DNA of 64,000 bases, taken from IMG/VR virus record IMGVR_UViG_3300045988_180880, positions 32,001-96,000 of that record, one strand, 5' to 3'. Origin of the DNA: a virus. Of the stretch, positions 38,365 to 55,050 are shown piece after piece. Both the position numbers and the translations under genes were made by a program. The notes under the pieces are model-generated. The model was not told where the DNA came from and did no database searches. It saw only the letters and a program-made list of their open reading frames with translations. Numbering within the stretch: position 1 is the first letter of the stretch; each line of letters begins with the position of its first letter.

Positions 38365-38511
38365 ATAAATTAATCACAATTCAACGACTATGGACAAAAC
38401 CAGGCTAGTGTTGTGATAACCTAGTTTTAACCATGGAAAATATAGTCTTTGCAAGATAGAATTATATCTTGGGTAATCAATATAAGTTGGCTAAAGTATT
38501 GATTATCACAG

Positions 38512-39163
38512 AGTTAATCGCCAACCCTCTTTGCACGAGTACAGTATGTTTAGCATGAAGCTCAAGCTTAATGATTCATATGCAATTGAATTTCCCATCG
38601 CTGTTTGTGAGCCTTTAAATGCTGACTTCGATGGCGATACGTGCTCCATACAACTCGTCCCTCCAGAGGCAGCAGAAGAAACATATCTTAGGATGTCGCC
38701 AAGATATGTGAATGTTTATAAGAAAAATAATGAACCTATATTTAAATTTAACCACGAAACTTTGAATGGTCTTGCAGTTGCATCAGAATACGTATTTGAT
38801 GATCAGGATGAATTAGAAAATCCTAGACACTTTTATACGGATTATGTGCAACTTCTTAAAGATGTTGAAGTAGAGAAAAAAATTAAAGTAGGTACTCCAA
38901 TTACATTCACTGGAAAAATTGGAAATGTTGAATATACCGCTAAAACAACAAGTTATGGTAGACTTCGAATTTCTAAGATTCTAGACGCAGATATGGATGA
39001 AATTGGGATTTTATCTAATAAATATGAACGTATCAGTGCTAAAGCTGCTTCGAAATTATCTTTATATCTTAATCAATTTCCTGATGGAGTTGAGAAAAGA
39101 AAAGCATTACAGAAGCTTGCCCTCAGAATTGTTACATTAGCAGGAGTAGTTACGTTTGACTAT
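38512..39163 (+). CDS. rpoC: RNAP beta'-like subunit, exon 2 (catalytic NADFDGD)
   Basis: junction gives IVL|VNRQPSLH; NADFDGDT at ~38620-38643; ends ..VVTFDY. Confidence 0.8.
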
Positions 39164-39350
39164 AAAATTGTAGCTTAAGAAATAAATTATCTTGAGAAAA
39201 TTCTATTAAAATGCTAGAACTATTAGAATAAAGTAGAATTAGCATCTCTATCTCTTAGATAAAATAGAGTTCAACGACTAAATATAGAACTGTATGAAGT
39301 TATATACAGATGATATAGTCTATCTAAATTAAGAAGATTTAGAATTAATG
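39164..39350 (+). ncRNA. group I intron, family A (187 nt)
   Basis: P1 ctaU / Gtag (short); P aatgctagaac, Q aattagcatc, R gttcaacgactaaa, S gatgatatagtct; ends attaatG. Confidence 0.7.
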
Positions 39351-39464
39351 AAAACGTTATATGCTGATTGTGATACTGAGACGTATAAAAGAATATGTAA
39401 TGTTGCAGATTCAAAAGATCTTACTGATAAACAAAAACTTCTTATAATGACTGAAGAATTTCGT
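39351..39464 (+). CDS. rpoC: RNAP beta'-like subunit, exon 3 (114 nt)
   Basis: KTLYADCDTETYKRICNVADSKDLTDKQKLLIMTEEFR; in frame with exons 2 and 4. Confidence 0.7.
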
Positions 39465-39637
39465 TAATTATTTTTAGCGACTTAATAATTTTAATTATTA
39501 AGAAAAATAAGAGAATTGCTAGAACTATATATAAAATACTGAACTAGCATCAAGTAGTATTAACTATTTGTTCAACGACTATGTACTTATTATAAAATGA
39601 TATAGTCTACCTTTATTGATTGAATAAAGAGTTAGTG
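39465..39637 (+). ncRNA. group I intron, family A (173 nt)
   Basis: P1 tcgU|t / aGcga; P/Q/R/S present; ends agttagtG. Confidence 0.7.
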
Positions 39638-39742
39638 AAATATGAAAAAGAAGTTTCTGAAAGTTTTAGTACAGATCTTAAAAATGAATTAGCACGTGCA
39701 AATCGTGTAAAACTAAACTCGATTGTAGCAATGTCAATGCCT
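39638..39742 (+). CDS. rpoC: RNAP beta'-like subunit, exon 4 (105 nt)
   Basis: KYEKEVSESFSTDLKNELARANRVKLNSIVAMSMP. Confidence 0.7.
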
Positions 39743-39923
39743 AAAGAAAAAATTGGGCAATATAATGAAAATTAACTCATTATATTAAAATTATGTTAAT
39801 TGCTGGAACTGTAAGAATTATAGAATTAGCATCAAGTAAAAGCTTAAATTATTTGTTCAACGACTATATACATAATATTAAAGATATAGTCTAAACTTAT
39901 ATAAAGTAATATAAGTATCATTG
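39743..39923 (+). ncRNA. group I intron, family A (181 nt)
   Basis: P1 tgccU|aa / ttGggca; P/Q/R/S present; ends atcattG. Confidence 0.75.
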
Positions 39924-40042
39924 CAATTTATTGTTAGTGGAGTTGATGAAAAACCTGTTATTACACGAGGAACACTTTTGTCAGGATATACAGAAAAAGA
40001 CTATCAGCTTCATTCAATCGAGAATAGATCACTACAGTCAAT
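39924..40042 (+). CDS. rpoC: RNAP beta'-like subunit, exon 5 (119 nt)
   Basis: QFIVSGVDEKPVITRGTLLSGYTEKDYQLHSIENRSLQS(at-); DYQLHSIENRSL aligns with E. coli QYFISTHGARKGL. Confidence 0.7.
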
Positions 40043-41332
40043 TTTAGTTTACCTTTAGTTGACTATAAATTCTACTAAATGCTGGAATTCTGTGAAGAGA
40101 ATCAGCAGTTAATACAAAACTAAGTCATAAAGTTGTGAAATTATTATGGCAGGGAAATTGGAAAAATTTATATTAACAGATAAAGAAGAAATAGATTCTT
40201 TTAATAAATTAATTAGTTTAAATCCGCAACCTGGAAAATCTTTTGATAATTATTTAAAAGTTATCAATCGCGGTCATTATAAAATATGTTTATATAAATG
40301 GTTTACTGGATTAGATGAAGATATTTATGTAACTCAATCTCATTTATATAAACATTTGAATGATAATAGCAAATTTGTTAAAATAACACCTCAAATTTAT
40401 TATGATGTTATAGTATTAGGTTTGACTAATATTAATGATCGTCCTAAATGTGAAATATGTGGAAAAATATCTAGATGGGATGGATTTAAAAGAGGTTATT
40501 TAAAAACATGTTCAGAAAAGTGTTCTGAACTATTAAGAGATAGTAGAATGTCTGAACAAGGATTAAAAAATTTTCACAAATTACAGACAAAAGAGTCTAG
40601 AGAAAAGCAGAGGGAATCACATAAAGGATGGAGTCCTTCAGAAAAACAAAGAAAACAAATTTCTCAACGAATGAAAGATTTCTATAAGACACCAAAAGGA
40701 TTAGAAATGAGAAAGAATTCTAGTAGGTTATTATCTGAAAGAAATATTGAAATGATGAAAGATAAGTCTTATTATAACAAACGAACAGGAGGTAAATATA
40801 AAACAGGTATATATCATTCTAAAGTTTGGAATAAAGATTTTAATTATGATTCATCTTGGGAAATTAATTTTATAAAATTTTTTGAAAAGCAGAAATGGCA
40901 AAGTGAGATAAAAATATTTGATAGGTGTTTAGATTCTATTATTTATAAATGGGATGATGGAACTGAACATAGATATCTACCTGATTTTTACATCAAATTT
41001 AAATCAGGTCTTCAAGTTGTTATTGAGTTAAAACCAGCAAATCTAATAGAAAAAGATCCGGTGATTTTAGCCAAAAGAATAGCAGCGAAGAAATACTTTG
41101 CAAAAAGAAATATAAAATATATTATATTATCTGAAAATGAACTATTCACAACTAGATATATAAAGTATACTAAATTATCTGAAAGTTTAGGAATAGTTAA
41201 TTCATTTAATATTTATGATTACATAGTTTAATTAAGATTTAGTTTTGTATTAATTCAACGACTATATGTAGAAACTTATGTGAATAAGAAAGGTATAGTC
41301 TAAGTCTTTATGAATAAATAAAGATATCACTG
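40043..41332 (+). mobile_element. group I intron, family A, with endonuclease ORF
   Basis: P1 agtcaaU|t / aGttgact; P aaatgctggaattc, Q gaatcagcagt, R attcaacgactat, S aaggtatagtct; ends tatcactG. Confidence 0.75.
40146..41231 (+). CDS. putative homing endonuclease (NUMOD3-like repeats + PD-(D/E)XK-like C-domain)
   Basis: SEKQRKQISQRMK repeats; YLPDFYIKFKSGLQVVIELKP resembles a PD..(E/D)xK nuclease core. Confidence 0.5.
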   Translation: MAGKLEKFILTDKEEIDSFNKLISLNPQPGKSFDNYLKVINRGHYKICLYKWFTGLDEDIYVTQSHLYKHLNDNSKFVKITPQIYYDVIVLGLTNINDRPKCEICGKISRWDGFKRGYLKTCSEKCSELLRDSRMSEQGLKNFHKLQTKESREKQRESHKGWSPSEKQRKQISQRMKDFYKTPKGLEMRKNSSRLLSERNIEMMKDKSYYNKRTGGKYKTGIYHSKVWNKDFNYDSSWEINFIKFFEKQKWQSEIKIFDRCLDSIIYKWDDGTEHRYLPDFYIKFKSGLQVVIELKPANLIEKDPVILAKRIAAKKYFAKRNIKYIILSENELFTTRYIKYTKLSESLGIVNSFNIYDYIV

Positions 41333-41347
41333 AAAAGTTAGTGGAGT
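41333..41347 (+). CDS. rpoC: RNAP beta'-like subunit, exon 6 (15-nt micro-exon)
   Basis: aaaagttagtggagt; supplies (I)KVSG(V). Downstream P1 agtgg(a)gU|t / aGcccact is homologous to the intron-5 P1. Restores E. coli-like spacing before SGYLTR. Confidence 0.55.
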
Positions 41348-41816
41348 TAGAAATAAAACCTGAACTTTATGGTAGCCCACTATAAATAACAAAGAAATGC
41401 TGGAAATAATAATAGACAGACGAAGTCAAAGTTTTTTAAAATCAGCAACTTATCAACGAGAAAAAGATGAATTATTAGTACTTTTTAAAACTTAATGTGT
41501 AGATTTGAAAAATTCTTAGAAACTCTAAGGCTTGTTGGAAGTATAGCAAGAACTATACTCTCTGGAATTGAAGAATATAGAAAAATTCAAGAAACAAAAG
41601 CTTATCGAGAGAATAAGAAAAATAATGTAAAATATCTACCAAGACCAAAAAGGTATAATAGTAGAAGAAAACAAAGATAAGATCAACGACTATGTATTGT
41701 TAGATTAAGGAAACTCTTTAATCATGATATAGTCTAATCTTACGTGAATAAGCGTAAGCAGGATAAGAGATTAGAAGACGTCTTTTAAAAATTATAATAT
41801 CTAATCTCTTTGAATG
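41348..41816 (+). mobile_element. group I intron, family A, with 61-aa basic ORF remnant
   Basis: P aaatgctggaaat, Q aaatcagcaac, R gatcaacgactat, S atgatatagtct, P9 cttacg../..cgtaag, extra 9-bp hairpin agagattag/ctaatctct; ends ttgaatG. Confidence 0.6.
41495..41680 (+). CDS. small basic intron ORF (61 aa), function unknown
   Basis: ORF track; sits in the loop position used by endonuclease ORFs in sibling introns. Confidence 0.35.
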   Translation: MCRFEKFLETLRLVGSIARTILSGIEEYRKIQETKAYRENKKNNVKYLPRPKRYNSRRKQR

Positions 41817-42106
41817 GCCTAGTTCAGGATATTTAACACGACAAATTTCATTCCTTTTAAATAGTTTTATATATCATGAAGGAGAAGATCCAGAAAACAC
41901 AGGATTACTCATTCCACGATATAAAGCATTAGGAAGAACAGCACCGAACGGAAAGGTATACCCAGACAAACCAATAGTAAATGGTTCTGAGGATGATCTT
42001 GTTCCAGTACGTTCGATTGTTACAAAAAGAACTGGAGATTTAAGCACAATTACACCAGACCTGATTGGAAAGAAATTTAGTTTTACTGATGGAGCAGCAA
42101 TAGGAT
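41817..42106 (+). CDS. rpoC: RNAP beta'-like subunit, exon 7
   Basis: (V)PSSGYLTRQISFLLN...VRSIVT...GAAIG(t--); SGYLTR is a universal beta' block. Confidence 0.7.
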
Positions 42107-42344
42107 AAGTTTAGAATTGTCCATAAAAGTTTGTTATAGACTTTTATTAAACTTCAAGAATTGCTGGGAGTATTATCGCTATTTATTCTTCGCCTTGTAA
42201 AATAAAAAACTTAAGGCGAAAATTATATAGCGAGAGATAATCAGCAAAAGATATAGAAAATATATCTTCTTAACGACTATGTGTGAAGGAGAGATTAAAA
42301 CACTCTTAAGATATAGTCTAGTAATCTATATAAAGTTTGTATAG
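42107..42344 (+). ncRNA. group I intron, family A (238 nt)
   Basis: P1 ggaU|aa / ttGtcc; P aattgctgggag, Q taatcagcaaa, R cttaacgactat, S aagatatagtct; ends gtatagG. Confidence 0.7.
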
Positions 42345-42392
42345 GTTTAATCGTATCATTTGCTACATCATTAACTGAAGGTACTACTCAAT
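42345..42392 (+). CDS. rpoC: RNAP beta'-like subunit, exon 8 (48 nt)
   Basis: (C)[15 protein letters not shown](t--), equivalent of the trigger-loop block IAAQSIGEPGTQLT. Confidence 0.7.
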
Positions 42393-42573
42393 TAAAATTG
42401 GTTGCTATATAAAATAGTATTATATAGAAAATCTTTGTAAAATGCTGGAAATTAAAAAAAAATAATCAGCATCAAGGAATATATTAATAACTTGTTCAAC
42501 GACTATAAAAAAAGATCTTATTAATTTAAGAATGGTATAGTCTAAATTCATTCTAAAAGGATGAATAATCTTG
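42393..42573 (+). ncRNA. group I intron, family A (181 nt)
   Basis: P1 caaU|t / gGttg; P/Q/R/S present; ends aatcttG. Confidence 0.65.
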
Positions 42574-42602
42574 CAGCATTAGGTCTGAAACATGGTGGCC
42601 AT
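42574..42602 (+). CDS. rpoC: RNAP beta'-like subunit, exon 9 (29 nt)
   Basis: (S)ALGLKHGGH, equivalent of E. coli MRTFHIGG. Confidence 0.7.
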
Positions 42603-42762
42603 AGATTATATTTGTGGCGTATAATTTCAATAATTGCTGGAAATATTTGTAATAAAATAAATCAGCAGGGGAAAATAAAATCCCTTCAACGACTATAAAT
42701 GAAACTAGATGAATTTCTGGATGATATAGTCTAACTTATAAATTATATTATAAGAGTAATTG
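42603..42762 (+). ncRNA. group I intron, family A (160 nt)
   Basis: P1 gccaU|a / tGtggc; P aattgctggaaat, Q aaatcagcagg, R cttcaacgactat, S gatgatatagtct; ends agtaattG. Confidence 0.75.
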
Positions 42763-43002
42763 GAACGTGTGCTTAATACAGAAGGAAATCTTAAAGCACC
42801 AAAACAATGTGAGTTTAGAGAGGAAGGCAGATGGATTTACCTAAAAGTTAGAGGAGGAGAATTAAAATATCCGAGACCTAATAATTGGGTAGGAGTAGGT
42901 AAGACAAAATTTGAGAAAGGTGACTTAATAGGGTCAGCTTATAATACTACCTCGCCTATTTACAAGTTGAACGCTCTCATAAAACTTATGCGTGCCAAAG
43001 GT
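42763..43002 (+). CDS. rpoC: RNAP beta'-like subunit, exon 10
   Basis: ERVLNTEGNLKAP...LIKLMRAKG; the ORF-track tail EYKIAV* is intron. Confidence 0.7.
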
Positions 43003-43195
43003 GAATATAAAATTGCCGTCTAAGGAAGTAATTCTCTAGATAATTAGTAAGTAAATTTGGTGAAGCTAGTAACTAGTAATACCAAGCCTTGGATTAATAA
43101 TTAGAATCTTAAGGTATAACGAATAAAGACTTACCAACTTTTTTATAAGTTGAATTTATATTCTAAACTATAATAAGAAAATTATAGATAAATTG
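43003..43195 (+). ncRNA. group I intron, family B copy 1 (193 nt)
   Basis: P1 ggU|ga / ttGcc; P3 agtaagt/acttacc, P4 tttggt/accaag, P7 gaata/tattc; ends ataaattG. Confidence 0.75.
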
Positions 43196-43804
43196 AGTGA
43201 TGGCACAAGATATTTTGAGAAGGATAATGTTATTGTATCTGATTGTTATGCTTTGAATGATGGGGTTATTCATTACAAAGAGACCAAGGAAGGTGATACT
43301 GAAGTTTGGATTGGTGATACTCAGTATGACTATAATCCAGAGTGTATGTATTATTTTCCTGATGGTACAGAGATTAAGAAATTTCAAAGAATTTCCAGCG
43401 GAGTTTGCAATATGAATCATGTTATTGCAGAGTTGGGTTCTAATATTAATGATATTTACTTAATCTTTAGAAAACAATTTTATACTTTAACAGATGGAGG
43501 ATTTGTATCAACTGGTTTATCAGATCTTCATGCTACACAGGAAGAACTTATTGAACTTTTATTCACAGGTTTAACTGATGTAGGTGTAGATCCAGAAACA
43601 CAGAAGATTGAAGACATCCAATATCTAGGTACTCAAAGTGGTGTTTTAAATAAGAAGTCATTCTATACTGTTTTGTCTTACGGTTATAGCTCTAGAGTTG
43701 TGTCTAAAGCTCTCAAAGGGGAATTAAATCTTTCTGGTGACGTAATGACAGAAACTATATTAGGATTACTTTTAAATAATAAACTTGACGAAAAACAAAA
43801 GTAA
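43196..43804 (+). CDS. rpoC: RNAP beta'-like subunit, exon 11 (C-terminus)
   Basis: SDGTRYFEKDN...; total spliced frame 3351 nt + stop. Confidence 0.75.
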   Translation, partial: SDGTRYFEKDNVIVSDCYALNDGVIHYKETKEGDTEVWIGDTQYDYNPECMYYFPDGTEIKKFQRISSGVCNMNHVIAELGSNINDIYLIFRKQFYTLTDGGFVSTGLSDLHATQEELIELLFTGLTDVGVDPETQKIEDIQYLGTQSGVLNKKSFYTVLSYGYSSRVVSKALKGELNLSGDVMTETILGLLLNNKLDEKQK

Positions 43805-43813
43805 AAACAAATT

Positions 43814-44092
43814 ATGGGAACTATTAAATTTGAAATAGATCTTCCAGAATTTGAAAAAGAGTTGAGTATTAATGTAACTATTCATAGAGACGGTGAGGTG
43901 GTTTATACTACTACTACCTCATCTTCCTCTGTGGATAAATCTAATAATACTAATCTTTTATCGAGCCTTGGAAGTAAACCCGAGCAAGAAAAATGTATCT
44001 CTGTGGATGGAGATAAACAAAAAGAAGAAAAACCCAAGAAAGCATCAACTACATCTCGAAGGGGAGGAAATTTGATGAACTTGGATATATGA
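43814..44092 (+). CDS. hypothetical protein between beta' and beta genes
   Basis: ORF track; S/T/K-rich C-half. Confidence 0.45.
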   Translation: MGTIKFEIDLPEFEKELSINVTIHRDGEVVYTTTTSSSSVDKSNNTNLLSSLGSKPEQEKCISVDGDKQKEEKPKKASTTSRRGGNLMNLDI

Positions 44093-44123
44093 TGATTAAA
44101 ACCAGAGAAGAGAATTTTTTGTT

Positions 44124-44474
44124 ATGAACGATAATTATTATAAAATTATACTATCATATGAAATTCCATATAACATTTTAGACAGTCAAGATCCGAATAT
44201 TATACAGGCGAGAGAAATATTATATGAAAAACTTAGAGATGATATTTTTCCGAAGTATGAAAGATTTTCGGTAAAGCTTACATTACATCAACTTAAAGAT
44301 AACTTCAATTATCTTGTTACTTATGAAGCTTTTTTTAGATCTCTTGATGGTAAACCTATGGGAGAATATGTAGAGGCTCGTAGCTTAAAAGATAGTATTA
44401 AATCAGAATTAGAAACATTTTTTAATTCAGTAGATTGCGAATATAAGCAATTAAATATAAAACCATTAGTATAA
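44124..44474 (+). CDS. hypothetical protein between beta' and beta genes
   Basis: ORF track; stop overlaps the beta start (TAATG). Confidence 0.5.
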   Translation: MNDNYYKIILSYEIPYNILDSQDPNIIQAREILYEKLRDDIFPKYERFSVKLTLHQLKDNFNYLVTYEAFFRSLDGKPMGEYVEARSLKDSIKSELETFFNSVDCEYKQLNIKPLV

Positions 44475-45336
44475 TGAGTAATTTTAATCAATATTTCAGA
44501 AACACTGGAGCAAAAATTATAGTAGATCGATTTTTTAATAAAGTTGATGCATATAATCCTAAAGTAAAAGTTGGAAAAATTGGATATTCATTTATAGAAG
44601 AACCTCCTCAACCAGCTTCTTACTATATTGAAAATGGATTAACTGCTACACATAAAGTAAGAATTGAATATACAACTATAACGGATGGGAAAGAAGATCC
44701 TGAAATGAAGTATGCAGAGTTCGAAGTTCCTAAAGAAATTGATGGTGCATTTATTATAGAAGGCGCTTATCGTATTTCAACTAATCGAATGGGATCTGAT
44801 TATGACTGTCGTATTAAAATGTCTGGTACAGGAGATTATAAAGTTAATTTCGACTATGATAGAGTTTACGATATTCAAAAACAGATTCTGAAGATAAAAA
44901 GAATTAATCCGGAACTTGGAATTGCAGATAAACCAATTGATATAAAGTTTGAAGACATTGATAAATACTTGGAAACTGATAAAAAGGAGATCTTGAAGTT
45001 AACTGAAAGACAAACCAAGAAATTAATGATCAAACTTGACTTGGATTATAAACCTGAATATATTACACAAAAACTAATACAGGAATGTTTGGCCTTTGGA
45101 GATGATAGACTAAAAGACTTAATCATTGATAAAACATTAGAATCAGTTCCTAACAGTTTTATGCAATATATTTTTAGGAATAATAATGGACGTAACTATT
45201 TTGCAGCTAGACGAAGAATTACATCATATTTTACAAAGTATGGTAAAATTCAAGATCAAGTTACTGCAATTAGTACTTTGTGTTTTAGATTTTTTAAAGG
45301 AAGTAGCGATAACAAAGGAGATTCAGGAGTACAGGT
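44474..45336 (+). CDS. rpoB: RNAP beta-like subunit, exon 1
   Basis: ends ..GDSGVQ(gt-); the ORF-track tail is intron. Confidence 0.75.
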
Positions 45337-45544
45337 ACAAAATATAAAGGTGCCGTTTTATGGAGAAATCTATAAAATTATTAGTAAGTAAATTCGGTGA
45401 AGGGTAAAACCTAATACCGAACTAAGGATAATGAAAATTTTTAGTGTAACGAATAAAGACTTACTAACTTATAATTAAAATATAAGTTAAATTTATATTC
45501 TGTTCTATATAAGTAGAACTTTATTTATATAGTTAACAATAAAG
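45337..45544 (+). ncRNA. group I intron, family B copy 2 (208 nt)
   Basis: P1 ggU|ac / gtGcc; P3 agtaagt/acttact, P4 ttcggt/accgaa, P7 gaata/tattc; ends caataaaG. Confidence 0.75.
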
Positions 45545-45635
45545 CCCCCCTGGAGTAAATTCCATTAACTTAGAGGCAATCTCCCAAAAAATTGTTATTC
45601 CTGCGAGTGTAGCCTTTAATTCGACTTTTACAGAT
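45545..45635 (+). CDS. rpoB: RNAP beta-like subunit, exon 2 (91 nt)
   Basis: (V)PPGVNSINLEAISQKIVIPASVAFNSTFTD. Confidence 0.7.
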
Positions 45636-46763
45636 TTAGATTAAGTCTGATTATAGAATATTTTTTATAATAAAAACTTTGAGAATTGCTAGAAAACTAG
45701 TGATAGTTAATTAGCAGTATAAAATAAGTATAATTATTTATGCGTTGAGAGGAAAAATTTTTGAAAGGAATTTAAGAATGACGCATGTAAAAGAAATTAA
45801 ATACCACAATCAATTATGGTATTATAAAACGTACAATCAGTTAATAGATAAGTGTATACAGATGGAGTCTGAAGGTTATCCTGAAGATATGTATACAGAG
45901 GTTCACCACATACTACCTAAATGTATGGGTGGGACAAATGATGAGTCTAACTTAGTAAGAATGCCAGTTAGGTATCATATAATGGCACATTTATTGTTAG
46001 CACAAGTATATCCAGAAATAAATGGATTAGTTTATGCAGCACATGTTCTAGTCTCAGTGAATAATTCAGTTGTATCTACGAATACAGCTGCATTAATTAG
46101 AGAAGATTTTAAAAAGTCTAGAATAGGATCTCATCATTCAGAAGAGACAAGGAGAAAAATTTCTGAATCTAACAAAGGAAAAGTTATCCCTAGAGAACTA
46201 GTAGAGAAGTTAAGATCTATTAATTTAGGGAAGAAACATTCACTTGAAACGAGAAAGAAGATGTCAGAAGCTAGAAAAAGAGAGAATTTATCCGAGGAAA
46301 CACTAAGAAAAAGATCTCTAGCGTCCTCTGGAAGAAAACATTCTGAAGAAGTCAAGAAGAAGATTTCTATAGCTAATACTGGAAAAATTTTTAGCGAAGA
46401 ACACAGACAAAACATATCTAAAAGTAAGATGGGAAAAGGACATCCACATACTGAAAAAACAAAGAAAATGATGTCTGATACTAGCGTTAAGAGAAAAAGA
46501 GTTCAAGGCCCTGATGGAATAATTTACGAATCTATGAAACTTTGTTGTGAGAAATTTAATATTCATAGAGATACCCTTCGAAGCTGGATTAAAAATCACC
46601 CAGAAAAAGGCTTTAAATTTATTGATTAAAAAATTTATCATTACTATAAATTCCTTTCAATGTAATGAAATTTAATACTTATTTTATATTCAACGACTAT
46701 GTACAAAGAGGGAAATTCCTTAAGATATAGTCTAGTGATAAAGTAAAAAACTTTATCTATTCG
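45636..46763 (+). mobile_element. group I intron, family A, with HNH endonuclease ORF
   Basis: P1 cagaU|tta / taaGtctg; P aattgctagaaa, Q aattagcagt, R attcaacgactat, S aagatatagtct; ends ctattcG. Confidence 0.8.
45778..46629 (+). CDS. HNH homing endonuclease with NUMOD3-like repeats
   Basis: start moved to ATG 45778 (the track starts at an upstream TTG); first ~80 aa are near-identical to 37579..38364. Confidence 0.75.
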   Translation: MTHVKEIKYHNQLWYYKTYNQLIDKCIQMESEGYPEDMYTEVHHILPKCMGGTNDESNLVRMPVRYHIMAHLLLAQVYPEINGLVYAAHVLVSVNNSVVSTNTAALIREDFKKSRIGSHHSEETRRKISESNKGKVIPRELVEKLRSINLGKKHSLETRKKMSEARKRENLSEETLRKRSLASSGRKHSEEVKKKISIANTGKIFSEEHRQNISKSKMGKGHPHTEKTKKMMSDTSVKRKRVQGPDGIIYESMKLCCEKFNIHRDTLRSWIKNHPEKGFKFID

Positions 46764-47132
46764 TTAGTCGATATTGCCGACACTCCTATAAATAATAATA
46801 CTAACCTCCAGAACTCACTTACAGTTTCATGTCATATTACAGACGATGATGTACTATTTGATGTATATGATACAAATTTCGTAAAAATAACAATAAAATA
46901 TATAGACTATCTTAATAAAAAAGTAGCTGCCAGTGAGTATGTAGATTATGAAACTAACACTTTAAAGCCAGATAAAGATGGTCAAGTGGAGGTTAAGTAT
47001 AGGATGAAAAGAAAGATGGTTCCAGTCGAAGAAGTGGAATTGATCGATTTACATCCTGATTACAGATTGTCTAGCACAACTCGAAGAATCCCATTTGTGA
47101 ATTATACAGATAGTGTCAGAATAAGCATGGGT
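46764..47132 (+). CDS. rpoB: RNAP beta-like subunit, exon 3
   Basis: LVDIADTPINNNTNLQNSL (E. coli CPIETPEGPNIGLINSL) ... RRIPFVNYTDSVRISMG. Confidence 0.8.
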
Positions 47133-47326
47133 ACTAATTTATGTGCCGCTTAAAGTAGTAATATTTTAAGTAACCAGTAAGTAAATTCGGTGAAAGAGTG
47201 ACTGAGCTTTAATACCGAGCTAAAGATAATAGATTTCTTTAGTGTAACGAATAAAGACTTACTAACCAAAATAAAGGTTAAATTTATATTCTAAACTATA
47301 ATTAAAAGTATATTATAGAAGATTTG
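47133..47326 (+). ncRNA. group I intron, family B copy 3 (194 nt)
   Basis: P1 ggU|ac / gtGcc; core as in other B copies; ends aagatttG. Confidence 0.8.
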
Positions 47327-48266
47327 ACATCAATGCTTAAACAGAGTATACCTCTGATTAATGCGGAGCGTGCACTTGTTGACACTGGAAGGAATGAAGA
47401 GTTGAAAGATAATATATTAAATGAAAAGTTCAGTTATCCAGAGGGTAAGGTAAAGGATATAACAGAGGATGAAGTTATAATTGAATTGCCTGATGGAACT
47501 GAGACAAATATTTTACGAAGAACAGCGATTCAGAGTATAAATGACGTGGCGGTATTTACAGAGCCTAAAGTAAAAATCGGCCAAAAAGTAAAACAGGGAG
47601 ATATTATAACTGGTGCAGTTGGACATACTCCTGAAACATATAAGGCCGGCGTTAATGCTCTGGTACTTTTCCACGCCTATTATGGTTTAGTAAATGAGGA
47701 TGCTTTGGTGATATCAGAATCATTTGCAAATCGTATAGCATCTTATAGTATAATTGACTTAATGATTAATGTTAAGAGTACTAGTGCTATTAAGTGGATC
47801 GCCCCTATTGGAACAAAGGTTAAATCAAAAGATGCAGTAGTGACATTATATAAAGCTGTTCGTCTTGATGCTATAAATCAGGCACTACAAGAAAAACTCG
47901 GAGGACTTTTCGGAGAAGGACATGATCTCTCCGAATATACTATCGAGGATCATTTAGTTGTGCCTAATAATATAGACGAGGCAATAGTTTCTGATGTAAT
48001 GATACAGGAAATGAAGAAACCTAAAATTCCTAAATCAGTAAAATCACCTGACTATTCATTTACACATACCTCTCAGGATGTTATAGATGAATATGAAAAA
48101 ACAAAATCTCGAAAAATTATCTACGAGAAATACCCAGAGTATATTGCAGCTGATACATTAGATCCTATTAATATGGATCCAGAAGCGTATAAGATTGTGT
48201 ATACTGTTCGCGTGAGACTCATCAAAAGAACTGTGGGAATGATCGGAAGTAAAATTACCTCTAGAT
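47327..48266 (+). CDS. rpoB: RNAP beta-like subunit, exon 4
   Basis: junction SMG|TSMLKQSIPL aligns residue-for-residue with E. coli LMGANMQRQAVPT; ends ..GSKITSR(t--). Confidence 0.8.
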
Positions 48267-49666
48267 TTAATATAAGTCTAGTTAATTTTCAATAAAAGTT
48301 AACTAAATTTTGTGAATTGCTGGAAAAATCTAAATAAAATAGATGGATAGATAAATCAGCAGTATATTTATGTTTAATTATGAGTAAAATATGAGCGATA
48401 TTAATTTTTAATAATAAATTGAACAATGAGCGAAGAAGAAATATTAATACATAATCAAAATTGGTATCGCAAAGTATATTTCCAAATAATTGATCGCGCT
48501 AGATTAAGAGGTTTGGATAAAAATAAAATTGATTTTTATGTAGAAATTCATCATATACTACCTAAATGCCTAGGAGGAACTGATGAAAATGATAACTTAG
48601 TTGCATTAACTTATAGAGAACATATAGTTTGTCATAAATTATTGTGTAAATTATACCCAGATAATTACTACTTACATTCTTCTATATATTTAATGCTACA
48701 TATTAAAATAGAAAATGGGAAGAAGGTAAAAACATTTTCTAATTCTAAAGAGGCAGAAGAATATAAGCTTTTCTTGAAAACTCATAAAAAGCCTCTTTCT
48801 GAGGAATCTAGAAAAAAGATGTCAGAATCGCATAAAGGTTGGAGTCCATCTGAGGAACATAGAAGAAGAGTTTCAGAAGTACATACTGGAAAAATCGTTT
48901 CAAAAGAAACCAGAGAAAAATTAAGAAAGGTTAATCTGGGAAGACATCATACAGAAGAATCCAAAAGAAAGATATCAGAGTCACGTAGAGGAAAGAAATT
49001 ATCTTCAGAACAAAAAGAAAAAATTTCAAAATCACTAAAAGGAAAAAGATTAGGAATCTCTCCAACTAAGGAACAAGTAGAAAAAGCAAAACAAACTCGG
49101 ATACTCCATGGAGGGTGGGTACATACAGATGAAAGTAAAAGAAAAATTTCAGAATCTTTAAAGAAGACGAATTCTGTCTCTGAACATATATCAGAAGATA
49201 TAAGAAATTCTTTAAGGAAAAAGTTTGGGTTCGCTGTAAGATATACTGATATTAATACTGGTGAAATTTACGAATTTGATTCAATTACAAAAGCTGTTAG
49301 TGAACTTAAAGAGTTAAGTATTATGAATAAAAGCTTTCATTTTATAAAGCGTTCTTGTACATTAAATATTAATGGATTTGAATTTATCAATGAAACAAAT
49401 GAAATGATTCAAAAGAAAGTTCAGGGGCCTGATGGAATTATTTACAATAGTATATCTGAATGTGCTAGACAATTGAATACAGTTAGATCTGTAATTATTG
49501 ATTGGATTACTAATCATCCAGAAAAAGGATTTAAATACATTTAAAAAATCAATCGCTCATTGATATAAAAATAATTAAATAAAATATATTCAACGACTAT
49601 GTACAAAGAAGGAGTATTTCCTTAAGATATAGTCTAGACTTTACTTAATTAAGTAAAGTATTATCG
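48267..49666 (+). mobile_element. group I intron, family A, with HNH endonuclease ORF
   Basis: P1 ctagaU / Gtctag; P aattgctggaaaa, Q aaatcagcagt, R attcaacgactat, S aagatatagtct; ends tattatcG. Confidence 0.8.
48426..49544 (+). CDS. HNH homing endonuclease with NUMOD3-like repeats
   Basis: EIHHILPKCLGGTDENDN; many SEExRxKxSExxKG repeats; C-terminal WITNHPEKGFKYI as in the two paralogs. Confidence 0.75.
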   Translation: MSEEEILIHNQNWYRKVYFQIIDRARLRGLDKNKIDFYVEIHHILPKCLGGTDENDNLVALTYREHIVCHKLLCKLYPDNYYLHSSIYLMLHIKIENGKKVKTFSNSKEAEEYKLFLKTHKKPLSEESRKKMSESHKGWSPSEEHRRRVSEVHTGKIVSKETREKLRKVNLGRHHTEESKRKISESRRGKKLSSEQKEKISKSLKGKRLGISPTKEQVEKAKQTRILHGGWVHTDESKRKISESLKKTNSVSEHISEDIRNSLRKKFGFAVRYTDINTGEIYEFDSITKAVSELKELSIMNKSFHFIKRSCTLNINGFEFINETNEMIQKKVQGPDGIIYNSISECARQLNTVRSVIIDWITNHPEKGFKYI

Positions 49667-49680
49667 ATGGAGGCAAAGGT
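49667..49680 (+). CDS. rpoB: RNAP beta-like subunit, exon 5 (14-nt micro-exon)
   Basis: atggaggcaaaggt gives (Y)GGKG; the join ITSR-YGGKG-VVSAVKPDDMMP matches E. coli GRHGNKGVISKINPIEDMP. Confidence 0.75.
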
Positions 49681-49871
49681 CAAATTACAAGGCCGTTTAA
49701 GGTAGTAATATCTTAAATAATCAGTAAGTAAATTTGGTGAAGGAAGTAAAATTCTAATACCAAGCTAATAAAATATAATAATTTATTAGTATAACGAATA
49801 AAGACTTACTAGGTTGAAATAATACCTAAATTTATATTCTAATTTACTAGGATAATCTAGTAATAGTAATG
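49681..49871 (+). ncRNA. group I intron, family B copy 4 (191 nt)
   Basis: P1 ggU|c / gGcc; P3 agtaagt/acttact, P4 tttggt/accaag, P7 gaata/tattc; ends agtaatG. Confidence 0.75.
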
Positions 49872-50645
49872 GTTGTAAGTGCTGTGAAACCCGACGATAT
49901 GATGCCAATAATGGTAGATAAGGATGGGAAACAAAGACGTTGCGAAGTAGTGATGAATCCATACAGCACAATAAATCGTAAAATTCCGAGTGTCCTTATG
50001 GAATTACAACTCGGAAATATCGCTCACAAATTACACGATCTTGTAGATAATTATAAGAAAACAAAAACAGGGCAAAAGAAGATTAAGCCCCTTCTTGAAA
50101 CATATTACCCCGGACGTTTTACTAGTATGGATGTAGAAGAAATTATAGAACGTCATAATACTAGTAAAATCGAGGATATGTATTATTTCAATGTTGGCTG
50201 CTTCTCTACTAAATTTACTCCAGAACTTGTAAATCAATGGGCTGAAGATTTAGGTGTAGAAAGTCAGAGTAAAATTCTTATGCCTGAGACTGAATTAACA
50301 GATCTCGATGAATTAAAAGAAAATCTAGAACCAGAAGAATATGATAAATTAGTTTCTGGAATGTCTGGTAAGTTTAGAGAAGTAGATAAACCTTTGCAGG
50401 CGGGATTCATGACCCTTGAAGAGTTATACCATATACCATCATATAGTAATAAGGTTACATCAAGTCTATATGGCGTAGATATTAATGCTAAACGAGATGA
50501 ACCTATACTTGGAAAGGGACGCTATAGACAGACAGGACAGAAAATTGGTGAGATGGAATTGGCCGTATTACTTTCTAGAAATGCGGATCAATTTATCAGC
50601 GGTGCTAGAAAAGACACTGCGAAGGAAGATAATCAAATGTTCCTT
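49872..50645 (+). CDS. rpoB: RNAP beta-like subunit, exon 6
   Basis: VVSAVKPDDMMP..VVMNPYS...GQKIGEMELAVLL (E. coli GGQRFGEMEVWALE)...NQMFL. Confidence 0.8.
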
Positions 50646-50833
50646 AAATTATTGAGGCTAGTATCAATACAAACTGATACTAGAAAATATCTTAAATTGC
50701 TGGAACAAAGTAGAAAATCAGCATCAAGCTGTTGTTTTATAATTAACAGCTTGTTCAACGACTATAGTAGATACTAAAGAATACTTATTTTAGATAATAT
50801 AGTCTTACTTTAAATAAAATTAAAGATGAATAG
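50646..50833 (+). ncRNA. group I intron, family A (188 nt)
   Basis: P1 cctU|a / tGagg; P aaattgctggaac, Q aaatcagcatc, R gttcaacgactat, S gataatatagtct; ends atgaataG. Confidence 0.7.
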
Positions 50834-50862
50834 AATAACTTATTAGGTCTAGGATTAACCGT
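50834..50862 (+). CDS. rpoB: RNAP beta-like subunit, exon 7 (29 nt)
   Basis: NNLLGLGLT(gt-), equivalent of E. coli NVLLKEIRSLGI. Confidence 0.65.
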
Positions 50863-51067
50863 AAACTATTTGCGGTTTTAAATTATATTAAAATGCTAGA
50901 ATATTTATAATAAATATATTAGCAAAATATCTTACCTTAGATTATATCTAAGAAAAAGATATTCTCAACGACTAAATATATAACTAAGTTTGAAATATAA
51001 TTTAGATGATATAGTCTGAACATAGATTAATAATAATCTAGTAACGTAATTGAGTAGATGATAAAGG
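50863..51067 (+). ncRNA. group I intron, family A (205 nt)
   Basis: P1 aaccgU / Gcggtt; P aaaatgctagaat, Q atattagcaaa, R ctcaacgactaaa, S gatgatatagtct. 3' end placed at the only G (51067) that keeps the frame open. Confidence 0.6.
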
Positions 51068-54860: not shown

Positions 54861-54867
54861 TAAATAG

Positions 54868-54941
54868 TGGGCCCAGCCAGGCTTGAACTGACGACCTTCT
54901 GATTATGAGTCAGCTTCTCTAACCAACTGAGATATGGGCCC
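54868..54941 (-). tRNA. tRNA with CAU anticodon (Met, or Ile if lysidine-modified)
   Basis: minus strand gggcccatatctcagttggttagagaagctgactCATaatcagaaggtcgtcagttcaagcctggctgggccca; 7-bp acceptor, GTTCAAG T-loop. Confidence 0.85.
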
Positions 54942-54959
54942 TGTTATAATTATGTCTAG

Positions 54960-55050
54960 TATCGGGAGGGGAGCTCGAATCCCCACGGGTCTTATTTTTC
55001 TGCCCAAAACATTTTAAGTGTTTCTTGTCTACCTATTCCAACATCCCGAC
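54960..55050 (-). tRNA. class II tRNA-Leu (UAA anticodon) with long variable arm
   Basis: minus strand gtcgggatgttggaataggtagac..aaacaCTTAAAAtgttt..long variable region..ggggattcgagctcccctcccgata; Leu-type D-loop GGAAUAGGUAGAC. Confidence 0.75.

What the first reader, a model, noticed from the sequence alone, without database searches (positions are those of the whole stretch)
43003..49871. A compact ORF-less group I intron family (B) present in four copies, all inserted after GGT
Copies lie at 43003-43195, 45337-45544, 47133-47326 and 49681-49871. They share this order of elements:
- P1, exon ..GGU| paired with the IGS ..G(C/Y)C.
- P2 hairpin.
- AGTAAGT (P3).
- AAATTYGGTGAA (P4).
- ATACCRAG (P4').
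- P6 hairpin.
- GTRTAACGAATAAAG (J6/7-P7).
- ACTTACT (P3').
- P8 hairpin.
- AAATTTATATTCT (P7').
- P9 hairpin, ending ..G.
They are 191-208 nt, around the size of the smallest well-studied self-splicing group I intron (Azoarcus tRNA-Ile, 205 nt). They have no endonuclease gene yet occupy four different sites in two genes. That suggests intragenomic spread by reverse splicing, or in trans by the neighbouring HNH enzymes. Several family A members are smaller still (160-188 nt).
Basis: seen in the sequence. Interest (0 to 1): 0.85.

Follow-up and report, generated by a model that had tools for sequence, protein, structure and literature searches.

The report
Compact GGU-targeting group I introns
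Four copies of one tiny (191-208 nt), protein-less self-splicing group I intron interrupt the RNA polymerase genes of a human-gut jumbo phage, always right after GGT; such introns were recently reported in bulk for these phages, but this family's fixed 3-letter guide and its 15 or more insertion sites are useful natural evidence on how introns without an endonuclease spread.

Summary
The four copies lie at 43003-43195, 45337-45544, 47133-47326 and 49681-49871. They are one family, with identical cores and variable hairpins, and each follows GGT.

They are real group I introns.
- P2, P4, P5, P6 and P8 covary within the family. P3 and P7 covary once bacterial relatives are added.
- P1 is exon GGU paired to an invariant GCC guide. 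Each copy has a P10 matching its own 3' exon and ends in G.
- Removing the introns gives an in-frame 1062-aa RNA polymerase beta.
- Near-identical phage contigs carry intron-less alleles joined exactly at the predicted junctions of B1, B2 and B4.

Rfam misses them. A model built from them hits Rfam-positive bacterial tRNA introns of the Azoarcus type, plus one intron in a putative prophage tape-measure-like gene.

Related human-gut contigs of up to 378 kb hold at least 70 copies at 15 sites, all after GGT. Fourteen are glycine codons, several in recognisable catalytic or nucleotide-binding motifs.

The window very likely comes from a 'Jug' jumbo gut phage. A 2025/2026 paper counted 2513 group I introns of about 206 nt in those phages, so their existence is published. 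The family anatomy and the GGU rule appear not to be. The way the family spreads (reverse splicing or DNA-level routes) is unresolved.

The parts
43003..43195 (+). Family B copy B1 (193 nt), in the ORF upstream of beta (probable beta' C-terminal part), between codons ...MRAKG | SDGTRYFE...
   Evidence: CM R1 scores it at 172.5 bits. The site is empty in L001, which reads GCAAAAGGT|TCCGACGGG = AKG|SDG.
45337..45544 (+). Family B copy B2 (208 nt), in the beta gene. It is the only phase-2 copy (CAG GT|C).
   Evidence: CM R1 scores it at 175.8 bits. The site is empty in L003 and L040 (CAGGT|CCCCCC) and in seven loci that read CAAGTTCCCCCC.
47133..47326 (+). Family B copy B3 (194 nt), in the beta gene at ISMG | TSMLKQSIPL.
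   Evidence: CM R1 scores it at 175.9 bits. The spliced protein aligns without a gap to Thermus beta 'alMGsnMqtQavPL'. The copy is present in all 14 related loci that cover the site.
49681..49871 (+). Family B copy B4 (191 nt), in the beta gene at SRYGGKG | VVSAVKPDDMMP.
   Evidence: CM R1 scores it at 152.9 bits. The spliced protein aligns to Thermus 'nRhGnKGVVakilPvedMP'. The site is empty in L003, L006 and L034, which read AAGGGT|GTTGTATC.
43000..43002 (+). 5' exon GGT of B1, the exon strand of P1. The equivalents are 45334-45336, 47130-47132 and 49678-49680.
   Evidence: All 15 distinct sites have GGT at this position.
43015..43017 (+). Internal guide GCC of B1, which pairs with exon GGU (U.G at the splice site). 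The equivalents are 45352-45354, 47145-47147 and 49692-49694. The bases just 5' of it form the P1 extension and P10.
   Evidence: Single-sequence minimum-energy folds recover P1 in B2, B3 and B4.
43018..43041 (+). P2 hairpin of B1, capped by a GNRA tetraloop (GUAA). The equivalents are 45355-45378, 47148-47171 and 49695-49718.
   Evidence: Six of 10 pairs are compensatory within the family. The loop is GUAA, GAAA or GCAA in all 20 distinct copies.
43047..43085 (+). B1: P3 5' strand GTAAGT, J3/4 AAA, P4 TTYGGTG, J4/5 AA, P5 hairpin, J5/4 AA, P4' TACCRA. The equivalents are 45384-45420, 47177-47218 and 49724-49763.
   Evidence: The P4 pair Y65-R115 covaries (CG in 12 copies, UA in 8).
43087..43114 (+). 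P6 hairpin of B1. The equivalents are 45422-45444, 47220-47242 and 49765-49789.
   Evidence: Six of 6 pairs are compensatory.
43118..43134 (+). B1: P7 5' strand A[C]GAATA, with a bulged C before the G of the G-binding G-C pair, then P3' ACTTAC. The equivalents are 45448-45464, 47246-47262 and 49793-49809.
   Evidence: This stretch is invariant in the family. It covaries against the bacterial relatives, while the G-C pair stays invariant.
43135..43164 (+). B1: P8 hairpin, J8/7 and P7' TATTCT. The equivalents are 45465-45501, 47263-47292 and 49810-49840.
   Evidence: Five of 6 P8 pairs are compensatory. P7 is 100% paired.
43165..43195 (+). B1: P9 hairpin and 3' tail ending in the terminal G (43195). 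The equivalents are 45502-45544, 47293-47326 and 49841-49871.
   Evidence: Minimum-energy folds recover P9. The junctions are fixed by intron-less alleles.
44474..50777 (+). Host gene, RNA polymerase beta. Exons used: 44474-45336, 45545-45641, 46764-47132, 47327-48266, 49667-49680 and 49872-50777. The true 3' end probably lies further on, because two more family A introns start near 50640.
   Evidence: The spliced CDS is 3189 nt and 1062 aa with no internal stop. phmmer against PDB gives E = 2.8e-24 to bacterial beta. The family A introns are seen.
49667..49680 (+). A 14-nt micro-exon, ATGGAGGCAAAGGT, between the HNH-bearing intron A2 and B4.
   Evidence: L003 has the uninterrupted TCTAGATATGGTGGTAAGGGTGTTGTA.
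45642..46763 (+). Family A intron A1 (1122 nt), carrying an HNH/NUMOD3 ORF at 45745-46629. It is context, not part of family B.
48267..49666 (+). Family A intron A2 (1400 nt), carrying an HNH/NUMOD ORF at 48426-49544. It is context. In the sampled loci it is present wherever B4 is present.

Best explanation
These are four copies of one family of minimal, ORF-less group I introns, carried by a human-gut jumbo phage that is very probably a 'Jug' phage.

Each copy is transcribed as part of the RNA polymerase mRNA. It folds into the canonical core: P1-P2, the P3-P8 domain and the P4-P5-P6 domain, the P3/P7 pseudoknot, and P9.

Each copy defines its 5' splice site by pairing the last three exon bases, GGU, with a fixed guide, GCC (U.G wobble at the cut). 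It aligns the 3' exon through a short P10 specific to that copy. It is then removed by the usual two guanosine-dependent transesterifications, ending at its terminal G. This restores conserved motifs such as MG|TSMLKQ and RYGGKG|VV.

What is shown here: the architecture, the covariation, the guide pairings, the in-frame ligation product and the intron-less alleles.

What is inferred: that splicing occurs in vivo (supported for Jug-phage introns in general by published metatranscriptome reads) and that it needs no protein.

Because only GGU plus a few adaptable bases are needed, the family can sit at many sites. At least 15 are seen, sometimes 12-14 nt from another intron. How copies reach new sites is not established.
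For: Family and copy number
- Four copies share exact cores far beyond chance.

Secondary structure
- On 20 distinct copies, 96.1% of cells are paired, against 33-47% when the 3' partners are slid. Twenty-one of 45 pairs show compensatory changes, in P2, P4, P5, P6 and P8.
- With 7 bacterial relatives added, P3 has 6 of 6 compensatory pairs and P7 has 4 of 7, and P7 is 100% paired. P7 was not part of the model that made the alignment. The G-binding G-C pair is invariant.
- Single-sequence folds recover P2-P6 and P9 in all four copies, P1 in three and P8 in three, with z from -4.1 to -5.7.

Splice-site definition
- GGU|...GCC is present at 15 of 15 distinct sites.
- P10 to each copy's own 3' exon has a mean run of 3.2 bp, against 1.08 for mismatched intron-exon pairs. 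None of 20000 permutations reached the observed value.

Exon ligation
- The spliced beta CDS is in frame, 1062 aa, and aligns across the junctions to solved beta subunits.
- Exact intron-less alleles exist for B1, B2 and B4 in contigs 95-99.8% identical to the window.

Link to recognised group I introns
- The family model gives full-length hits of 36-64 bits on bacterial loci. At most of those places Rfam calls RF00028 above its threshold.
- Most of these sit in tRNA anticodon loops.

Literature
- Jug phages carry 2513 group I introns of about 206 nt, and RNA reads support splicing for 37 of 76 tested (PMC12880540).
Against: - Rfam 15 gives no Intron_gpI hit on any copy, even at E <= 10 on a 231-nt slice.
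- Within the family itself P3 and P7 never vary, so their support depends on distant relatives in a model-fitted alignment.
- The copies are only 23-27% G+C and have little periphery: no 11-nt tetraloop receptors, and L9 is not GNRA. Protein-independent folding is therefore not assured.
- No RNA data for these particular four junctions were available.
- Membership of the window in the published Jug group could not be checked directly, because the supplementary tables are truncated.
Confidence: 0.93

Rival explanations
1. Spread by RNA-level reverse splicing. The excised intron inserts into any accessible mRNA at GGU, guided by GCC and helped by P10. The product is then reverse-transcribed and recombined into the genome.
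For: - Fifteen of 15 sites share nothing but GGU.
- Insertions are exact to the nucleotide.
- No endonuclease gene lies in any copy.
- The guide is only 3 nt, so targets are plentiful: 356 GGT in 41 kb of window ORFs.
- P10 matches each copy's own 3' exon.
- Two alternative sites 6 nt apart (RYGG| and RYGGKG|) are used in different genomes.
- A review states that the best circumstantial case so far is related rDNA introns at two sites (PMC3984707).
Against: - No reverse transcriptase was looked for or found.
- Fourteen of 15 sites are in-frame glycine codons, whereas only 57% of GGT trinucleotides in window ORFs are in-frame codons (203 of 356). By my own binomial arithmetic this has a probability of about 0.003. 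Several of the sites lie in recognisable catalytic or nucleotide-binding motifs. Both facts point to selection after insertion or to DNA-level homing at conserved sites.
- A fixed guide makes GGU obligatory for any surviving copy, whatever the insertion route, so the GGU rule alone does not discriminate.
- Many GGT sites stay empty.
Confidence: 0.3
2. Spread at the DNA level: homing or hitch-hiking driven by endonucleases encoded elsewhere. The candidates are the HNH/NUMOD enzymes in neighbouring family A introns, or free-standing ones ('collaborative homing'). A break or nick near the site would be repaired from an intron-bearing genome during co-infection, and recombination among copies would follow.
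For: - HNH/NUMOD3 ORFs lie 14 nt from B4 (intron A2) and 97 nt from B2 (intron A1).
- A2 and B4 are both present in 5 of 5 loci that cover both sites, and both absent in L003 and L005.
- Sites are conserved motifs, as is typical of endonuclease targets.
- Presence/absence polymorphism occurs among genomes 95-99.8% identical.
- Peripheral hairpins are shared in a mosaic pattern among copies at different sites, which indicates recombination between copies.
- Jug phages encode hundreds of HNH and other homing endonuclease genes across the 139 curated genomes (PMC12880540).
Against: - This explains homing into an already used site, but not how one intron reached at least 15 unrelated sites with nucleotide precision. 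Each new site would need its own endonuclease specificity or an illegitimate event.
- B2 is not linked to A1: L003 and L035 have A1 without B2.
- The A2-B4 linkage is based on few, related genomes.
Confidence: 0.4
3. They are not splicing introns but small internal group-I-like (GIR1-type) ribozymes. The Jug-phage paper suggested this from the ~206-nt size.
For: - Small size.
- The statement in PMC12880540.
Against: - They have P1 with a U.G splice site, P10 and a terminal G.
- They interrupt ORFs whose exons join exactly in intron-less alleles.
- They are not nested in a larger intron upstream of an endonuclease gene.
- Their closest recognised relatives are ordinary splicing tRNA introns.
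Confidence: 0.02
4. They are non-intron repeats (intergenic repeat elements or terminators) that separate independently translated gene fragments.
For: - Gene callers see fragmented ORFs.
- Rfam is silent.
Against: - Some exons have no start codon and are as short as 14 nt.
- Motifs are split in mid-sequence: RYGGKG|VV here, and NADFDG|D in L003.
- The group I covariation pattern is present.
- Intron-less alleles exist.
Confidence: 0.01

Closest known systems
Bacterial tRNA anticodon-loop group I introns of the Azoarcus/Anabaena type (subgroup IC3)
   Same: - About 200 nt, with P2 but without P2.1, P5abc or P7.1/7.2.
- Near-identical J3/4-P4-J4/5 (AAAUUCGGYGAA) and P4' (AAUACCGAG).
- P7 has a bulged base before the G-C pair.
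- L2 is a GNRA tetraloop.
- The guide is only 3 nt (Azoarcus CAU/GUG, from general knowledge).
- The family model hits such introns in tRNA-Leu(UAA), tRNA-Leu(CAA), tRNA-Arg(CCU) and tRNA-Met/Ile(CAU) genes at 26-47 bits. Rfam calls most of them RF00028.
   Different: - Family B sits in phage protein-coding genes, not tRNAs.
- It is present in many copies per genome.
- It is 23-27% G+C.
- L9 is not GNRA, and there is no CCUAAG...UAUGG receptor in P5 or P8.
- Rfam does not detect it.
- Formal subgroup assignment was not possible with the tools at hand.
Group I introns of Jug (jumbo gut) phages (PMC12880540; preprint PMC12363816)
   Same: - Same kind of genome: related contigs of up to 378 kb (the two found in the paper's collection table are 362.7 and 377.8 kb), about 30% G+C, from the human gut.
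- Two of the related IMG/VR contigs are in that paper's huge-phage collection.
- Same size class (~206 nt) and the same heavy fragmentation of essential genes.
- Published metatranscriptome support for splicing (37 of 76 tested).
   Different: - The main text of the paper counts introns with subtype models. It does not describe families, guide sequences, the GGU rule, P10 or site polymorphism.
- It interprets the small size as GIR1-like, which the anatomy here contradicts.
- It reports 18.5 introns per genome, whereas this window alone has about 17 in 14 kb.
Classical phage group I introns (T4 td/nrdB/nrdD; SPO1/SP82; Twort orf142; PhiPA3 RNA polymerase intron with HNH gp210)
   Same: - Self-splicing introns at conserved sites of essential phage genes.
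- Several introns in one gene (Twort).
- Introns in jumbo-phage RNA polymerase genes with HNH endonucleases (PMC11620839).
- ORF-less introns paired with free-standing endonucleases ('collaborative homing', PMC3984707).
   Different: - Those are mostly IA-type, with P7.1/7.2, and are larger (from general knowledge).
- They are single-site elements with longer guides specific to that site.
- None is known as one ORF-less family at 15 or more sites sharing a 3-nt target.
Prophage and phage relatives with the same P4-P6 core and P7 AACGACUA (L138; L177-L244)
   Same: - The best non-Jug hit (63.6 bits) is in a putative prophage tape-measure-like gene of a Peptococcaceae MAG, after ...AMMG| (ATGGGT|), with guide GCCC.
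- Fourteen of 49 distinct IMG/VR relatives also use GGT...GCC, for example at DPSGRG| and DPAGCG|.
   Different: - Different P3 and P7 sequences and higher G+C.
- One copy per contig as a rule.
- Many use other guides, for example GACGAU/AUGUCGUC.

Membership tests
Group I intron | The 5' splice site follows a U that forms a U.G wobble in P1 with an internal guide sequence. | tested here: met
   Exon GGU pairs with the guide GCC in 4 of 4 window copies and at 15 of 15 distinct sites. P1 is recovered by single-sequence folding in B2, B3 and B4.
Group I intron | Canonical order P3-P4-P5-P5'-P4'-P6-P6'-P7-P3'-P8-P8'-P7' with a P3/P7 pseudoknot, supported by covariation. | tested here: met
   family only: 96.1% of cells paired and 21 compensatory pairs. 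One search, with relatives: P3 6 of 6 and P7 4 of 7 pairs compensatory, against 33-44% paired in slid controls.
Group I intron | A guanosine-binding G-C pair in P7, next to a bulged nucleotide. | tested here: met
   A[C]G...C is invariant in all 22 sequences with letters at that pair (G186-C305). The bulge is C in family B and in L138, and A in the tRNA introns L087 and L139. Function was not testable.
Group I intron | A terminal (omega) G, and P10 pairing of the guide with the 3' exon. | tested here: met
   All copies end in G at junctions fixed by intron-less alleles. P10 is significant by permutation, with 0 of 20000 reaching the observed value.
Group I intron | Precise removal restores a functional gene. 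| tested here: met
   The spliced product is an in-frame 1062-aa beta that aligns across the junctions to solved beta subunits. Intron-less alleles exist for B1, B2 and B4.
Group I intron | A match to the Rfam RF00028 covariance model at its gathering score. | tested here: not met
   There is no hit at gathering or at E <= 10. An indirect link exists: the family's own model hits loci that Rfam does call RF00028.
Group I intron | Self-splicing with exogenous guanosine, in vitro or in vivo. | not testable with these tools
   The only evidence is the published metatranscriptome support for Jug-phage introns in general (PMC12880540).
Subgroup IC3 (Azoarcus/Anabaena tRNA introns) | Minimal periphery: P2 present, but no P2.1, P5abc, P7.1/7.2 or P9.1. 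| tested here: met
   Anatomy.
Subgroup IC3 (Azoarcus/Anabaena tRNA introns) | Sequence and structure similarity to tRNA anticodon-loop introns. | tested here: met
   R1 gives full-length hits of 26-47 bits on introns that aragorn places in tRNA anticodon loops and most of which Rfam calls RF00028.
Subgroup IC3 (Azoarcus/Anabaena tRNA introns) | GNRA loops L2 and L9 docking into 11-nt receptors in P8 and P5. | tested here: not met
   L2 is GNRA in 20 of 20 copies. L9 is A-rich and not GNRA. No CCUAAG...UAUGG receptor is present in P5 or P8.
Subgroup IC3 (Azoarcus/Anabaena tRNA introns) | Assignment by curated subgroup models (GISSD / Selles Vidal 2025). | not testable with these tools
Homing-endonuclease-encoding mobile intron | An endonuclease ORF inside the intron. 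| tested here: not met
   The copies are 191-208 nt with no ORF. The HNH ORFs lie in neighbouring family A introns.
GIR1-type group-I-like ribozyme | No P1 or splice sites, nested inside a twin-ribozyme intron upstream of an endonuclease gene, and a branching reaction. | tested here: not met
   P1, P10 and the terminal G are present. The copies are stand-alone in ORFs and their exons join exactly.
Jug phage introns (PMC12880540) | The host genome belongs to the Jug clade (360-402 kb, about 30% G+C, gut, Bacteroides/Phocaeicola). | tested here: inconclusive
   The window is 29% G+C and 95-99.8% identical to human-gut IMG/VR contigs of up to 378 kb. Two of these are in the paper's huge-phage collection table. 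The Jug membership table is truncated in the held copy.

The most novel reading that the evidence does not exclude
Family B is an endonuclease-independent, RNA-guided mobile element. It colonises new sites by reverse splicing into any exposed GGU. The variable bases next to its fixed GCC guide then adapt to, or are selected for, P10 pairing with the new 3' exon.

With at least 15 sites in one phage lineage and occupied and empty alleles side by side, it would be the strongest natural case yet for reverse-splicing transposition of group I introns. It could also serve as a compact, retargetable ribozyme scaffold.
Probability: 0.3. Interest if true: 0.8.

Novelty: new member of a known kind. Interest (0 to 1): 0.55.

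Why it matters
Whether group I introns without an endonuclease can move to new sites by reverse splicing has been open for decades and still lacks direct evidence (PMC3984707). This family offers many natural insertion events, at least 15 sites. They come with a fixed 3-nt target, a site-specific P10, and occupied and empty alleles in nearly identical genomes. That makes the question testable by sequence analysis and by simple ribozyme assays.

There are three practical points:
- Rfam 15 does not detect any of the roughly 17 introns in this RNA polymerase cluster. Gene calls and intron counts for such phages are therefore probably too low.
- The published reading of these ~206-nt elements as GIR1-like is probably wrong.
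- A natural ~190-nt, AT-rich ribozyme that tolerates 12-14-nt micro-exons is of interest for minimal-ribozyme and RNA-circularisation work.

Tried and rejected
- Rfam at gathering threshold, at E <= 10 on 34 kb, and on a 231-nt slice around B4: no Intron_gpI hit. This reflects a blind spot of the model, not evidence against the interpretation.
- Megablast of 42000-51000 and tblastn of beta exon 4 against 50,697 GenBank phage records: no match. My first guess, an AR9/PBS1-like Bacillus jumbo phage, was dropped.
- PDB phmmer and Pfam on the ORF that holds B1 (joined exons): no hit. Its beta' identity rests on synteny and on motifs seen by eye.
- The partial B-like motif at 3937-3955: the family model with filters off gives only noise there, and there is no tandem array.
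- Direct confirmation of Jug membership and of the paper's intron tables: the supplementary tables are truncated or not held.
- aragorn without the intron option missed the bacterial tRNA hosts. With -i it found them.
- A 200-shuffle folding script timed out. It was rerun with 40 mononucleotide shuffles.
- An extended P7 pair (192-298) was dropped, because it breaks in the bacterial relatives.
- Literature searches for earlier descriptions of a GGU-targeting or multi-site ORF-less phage intron family found none.

Full report
**1. The observation**

Reading 42800-50100 and aligning the four stretches confirms one repeated element at 43003-43195, 45337-45544, 47133-47326 and 49681-49871. The lengths are 193, 208, 194 and 191 nt.

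The cores are identical. They are AGTAAGTAAATTYGGTGAA, ATACCRA, TAACGAATAAAGACTTAC and AAATTTATATTCT. The hairpins between them differ in sequence and length.

- The 18-mer TAACGAATAAAGACTTAC occurs exactly four times, against 0.18 expected.
- The 19-mer occurs exactly at the same four places.
- Each element starts right after GGT and ends in G.

**2. They interrupt genes, and removal restores them**

Joining 44474-45336, 45545-45641, 46764-47132, 47327-48266, 49667-49680 and 49872-50777 gives a 3189-nt frame of 1062 aa with no internal stop.

This protein matches solved bacterial RNA polymerase beta subunits (E = 2.8e-24). The alignment runs straight across two junctions: rISMG|TSMLKQSIPL against alMGsnMqtQavPL, and SKITSR|YGGKG|VVSAVKPDDMMP against dKlanRhGnKGVVakilPvedMP.

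So B2, B3 and B4 lie in the beta gene, together with two longer introns that carry HNH/NUMOD ORFs (45642-46763 and 48267-49666). Only a 14-nt exon (49667-49680) separates the second of these from B4.

B1 lies in the ORF just upstream. That ORF follows a fragment with an Rpb1 domain and the NADFDGD motif (38531-39178), and it has a trigger-loop-like motif by eye. PDB and Pfam searches of it found nothing, so 'beta' C-terminal part' is an inference.

**3. Relatives and intron-less alleles**

The exact 17-mer AACGAATAAAGACTTAC finds at least 56 stretches of IMG/VR contigs of up to 378 kb. The stretches hold 70 copies, almost all with the full family architecture.

The window is 95-99.8% identical to several of these contigs. 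They provide empty sites joined exactly where predicted:
- B1: L001 reads GCAAAAGGT|TCCGACGGG (AKG|SDG).
- B2: L003 and L040 read CAGGT|CCCCCC. Seven loci read CAAGTTCCCCCC.
- A2 and B4 together: L003, L006 and L034 read TCTAGATATGGTGGTAAGGGTGTTGTA (SRYGGKGVV).
- B3 is present in every locus that covers its site.

This fixes the boundaries and shows gain or loss among near-identical genomes.

**4. Structure**

On 20 distinct copies (A3), my hand-drawn structure has 96.1% of cells paired, against 33-47% when the 3' partners are slid by 1-3 columns. Twenty-one of 45 pairs show compensatory changes: P2 has 6, P4/P5 has 4, P6 has 6 and P8 has 5. P3 and P7 never vary within the family.

A covariance model (R1) finds only the four copies in the window (153-176 bits).

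A scan of bacterial genomes with the P4-P5-P4' pattern, followed by R1, gave full-length hits of 36-64 bits.
- At most of these places Rfam calls RF00028 above threshold (53-71 bits).
- aragorn with the intron option places most of them in tRNA anticodon loops: Leu(UAA), Leu(CAA), Arg(CCU) and Met/Ile(CAU).

With seven of these relatives added (A4), all 6 pairs of P3 and 4 of 7 pairs of P7 show compensatory changes, and P7 is 100% paired. P7 was not part of the model that made the alignment. The G-C pair next to the bulged base is invariant.

Single-sequence folds recover P2-P6 and P9 in all four copies, P1 in three and P8 in three (z from -4.1 to -5.7). L2 is a GNRA tetraloop in all 20 copies.

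**5. Splice-site definition**

In all 15 distinct insertion sites found (window plus loci), the exon ends in GGT. A GCC lies 7-18 nt downstream, just before P2.

P1 is therefore three exon pairs (G-C, G-C, U.G) plus 1-4 pairs made by the first intron bases.

The bases just 5' of GCC are complementary, in register, to each copy's own 3' exon. The mean run is 3.2 bp, against 1.08 for mismatched intron-exon pairs, and none of 20000 permutations reached the observed value. This is P10, and it is specific to each site.

I chose some of the 3' splice sites in relatives by reading frame and terminal G, which is a possible source of bias.

**6. Where the copies sit**

Sites include:
- NADFDG|D (the beta' catalytic loop; occupied in L003, empty in the window, which has GGC there)
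- MG|TSMLKQ
- RYGG| and RYGGKG| (two alternative sites 6 nt apart, used in different genomes)
- GPAG|SGKS (Walker A)
- RRRPG|MYIGG (type II topoisomerase-like)
- LDNG|HGNN (amidase-like)
- ENG|TEDG|TD, where two B copies flank a 12-nt exon

The motif names are from my own knowledge.

Fourteen of 15 sites are in-frame Gly codons. GGT is 26% of Gly codons in window ORFs, and only 57% of GGT trinucleotides there are in-frame codons.

**7. What it is and how it works**

These are minimal group I introns of the Azoarcus-like (IC3-type) build. They are excised from RNA polymerase (and other) mRNAs by the standard mechanism.

The architecture and the ligation product are shown here. Catalysis and independence from proteins are inferred.

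The three-base guide explains two things. It explains why every copy follows GGU, and why copies can sit 12-14 nt from another intron.

The route of spread is open:
- Reverse splicing fits the shared GGU, the nucleotide precision and the absence of an ORF.
- The bias towards conserved in-frame glycines, the neighbouring HNH genes, the A2-B4 linkage (both present in 5 of 5 loci, both absent in 2) and the mosaic sharing of hairpins among copies fit DNA-level homing, hitch-hiking and recombination.
- A fixed guide would also filter any insertion route down to GGU sites.

**8. What is known**

Literature search found the Jug (jumbo gut) phages: 360-402 kb, about 30% G+C, hosts Bacteroides/Phocaeicola. 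The paper reports 2513 group I introns in 136 of 139 genomes, with a mean length of about 206 nt. Metatranscriptome reads support splicing for 37 of 76 tested.

Two of the related IMG/VR contigs are in that paper's huge-phage collection table. The Jug membership table is truncated in the held copy. The existence of such introns in these phages is therefore published.

The main text of the paper does not describe families, guides, the GGU rule or P10. It suggests the elements are GIR1-like, which the anatomy contradicts.

A review states that reverse splicing has no direct evidence, and that the best circumstantial case is related rDNA introns at two sites. Searches for an earlier description of a multi-site, GGU-targeting ORF-less phage intron family found none.

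**9. Broader lineage**

A pattern combining the same P4-P6 core with P7 AACGACTA finds 68 further IMG/VR loci, in phage contigs of 4-166 kb.
- Fourteen of 49 distinct copies also have GGT...GCC, against 4% in shuffles. Examples are DPSGRG| and DPAGCG|.
- Others use different guides.

The best non-Jug relative sits in a putative prophage tape-measure-like gene after ATGGGT|, with guide GCCC.

**10. Verdict**

I file it as a new, well-characterised member family of a known kind, inside a phenomenon that was recently published.

Interest is moderate (0.55). The existence of these introns would not surprise a specialist who knows the Jug paper. The family does make the reverse-splicing question directly testable.

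Noticed in passing
window 38383-51011: Thirteen further cores of a second intron family ('A') lie here. Each has AACGACTA, a hairpin, then ATAGTCT, which is the same P7 as in the bacterial and prophage relatives. With the 4 B copies, that makes about 17 group-I-like introns in about 14 kb of the RNA polymerase beta'/beta cluster. Rfam 15 calls none of them. The published mean for Jug phages is 18.5 per whole genome, so counts may be too low.
   Followed up: partly
window 49667-49680; L018 about 8089-8100: There are micro-exons of 14 nt (between HNH intron A2 and B4) and of 12 nt (ACTGAAGATGGT, between two family B copies in a related phage). A 3-nt guide makes such tight stacking workable.
   Followed up: partly
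window 38633-38650 (GCTGACTTCGATGGCGAT, the ADFDGD part of the NADFDGD motif; approximate) and 49670-49675 (GGAGGC); L005 about 8732-8737 (AAAGGC): Empty alleles of sites that carry a B copy in other genomes have the rare Gly codon GGC in 3 of about 10 haplotype cases. GGC is 4.5% of Gly codons in window ORFs. In the RYGG/RYGGKG pair, the unoccupied neighbour is GGC in each intron-bearing haplotype. This could reflect avoidance of a competing GGU splice site or resistance to invasion. The sample is small and the test is post hoc.
   Followed up: partly
window 50640-50830 and 50860-51046: Two ORF-less family A introns appear to interrupt the 3' end of the beta gene. The ORF end at 50777 used here is therefore probably not the true C-terminus. 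The first gives a weak hit to the family B model (23 bits).
   Followed up: partly
window 40146-41231, 37579-38364, 45745-46629, 48426-49544: Endonuclease-type ORFs lie between beta'/beta gene fragments. The last two are inside introns A1 and A2; for the first two, placement inside introns is assumed. One is TnsA-like (PF08722). Three have NUMOD3 motifs, two of which also have weak HNH matches, and one has an I-TevI-type DNA-binding domain.
   Followed up: no
L001 11055-11200 (contig IMGVR_UViG_3300035283_000157): In this relative the B1 site is empty. A family A intron sits 9 nt upstream instead, after ATGCGT|. Different introns thus occupy neighbouring positions of the same motif in different genomes.
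   Followed up: partly
alignment A3 (L007, L008, L009, L011, L014, L017, L018, L036, L051): Peripheral modules are shared in different combinations among copies at different sites. Examples are a P5 extension CCTTAGA...TCTAAG, a P6 extension GATCTTAGATAAATCTAAG and the P8 variant CAAGATAATA...TATCTTG. This suggests recombination or gene conversion between intron copies.
   Followed up: no
L138 2982-3192 (Peptococcaceae MAG DDXI01000148.1): The closest non-Jug relative is a group I intron (Rfam 70.7 bits) in a putative prophage tape-measure-like gene, after ...AINDAMMG|. It has guide GCCC paired to GGGU.
   Followed up: partly
window 54867-55050 (- strand): The phage encodes tRNA-Met(CAU) and tRNA-Leu(UAA). 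The latter is the classical host of IC3 introns in bacteria, but it is intron-less here.
   Followed up: no
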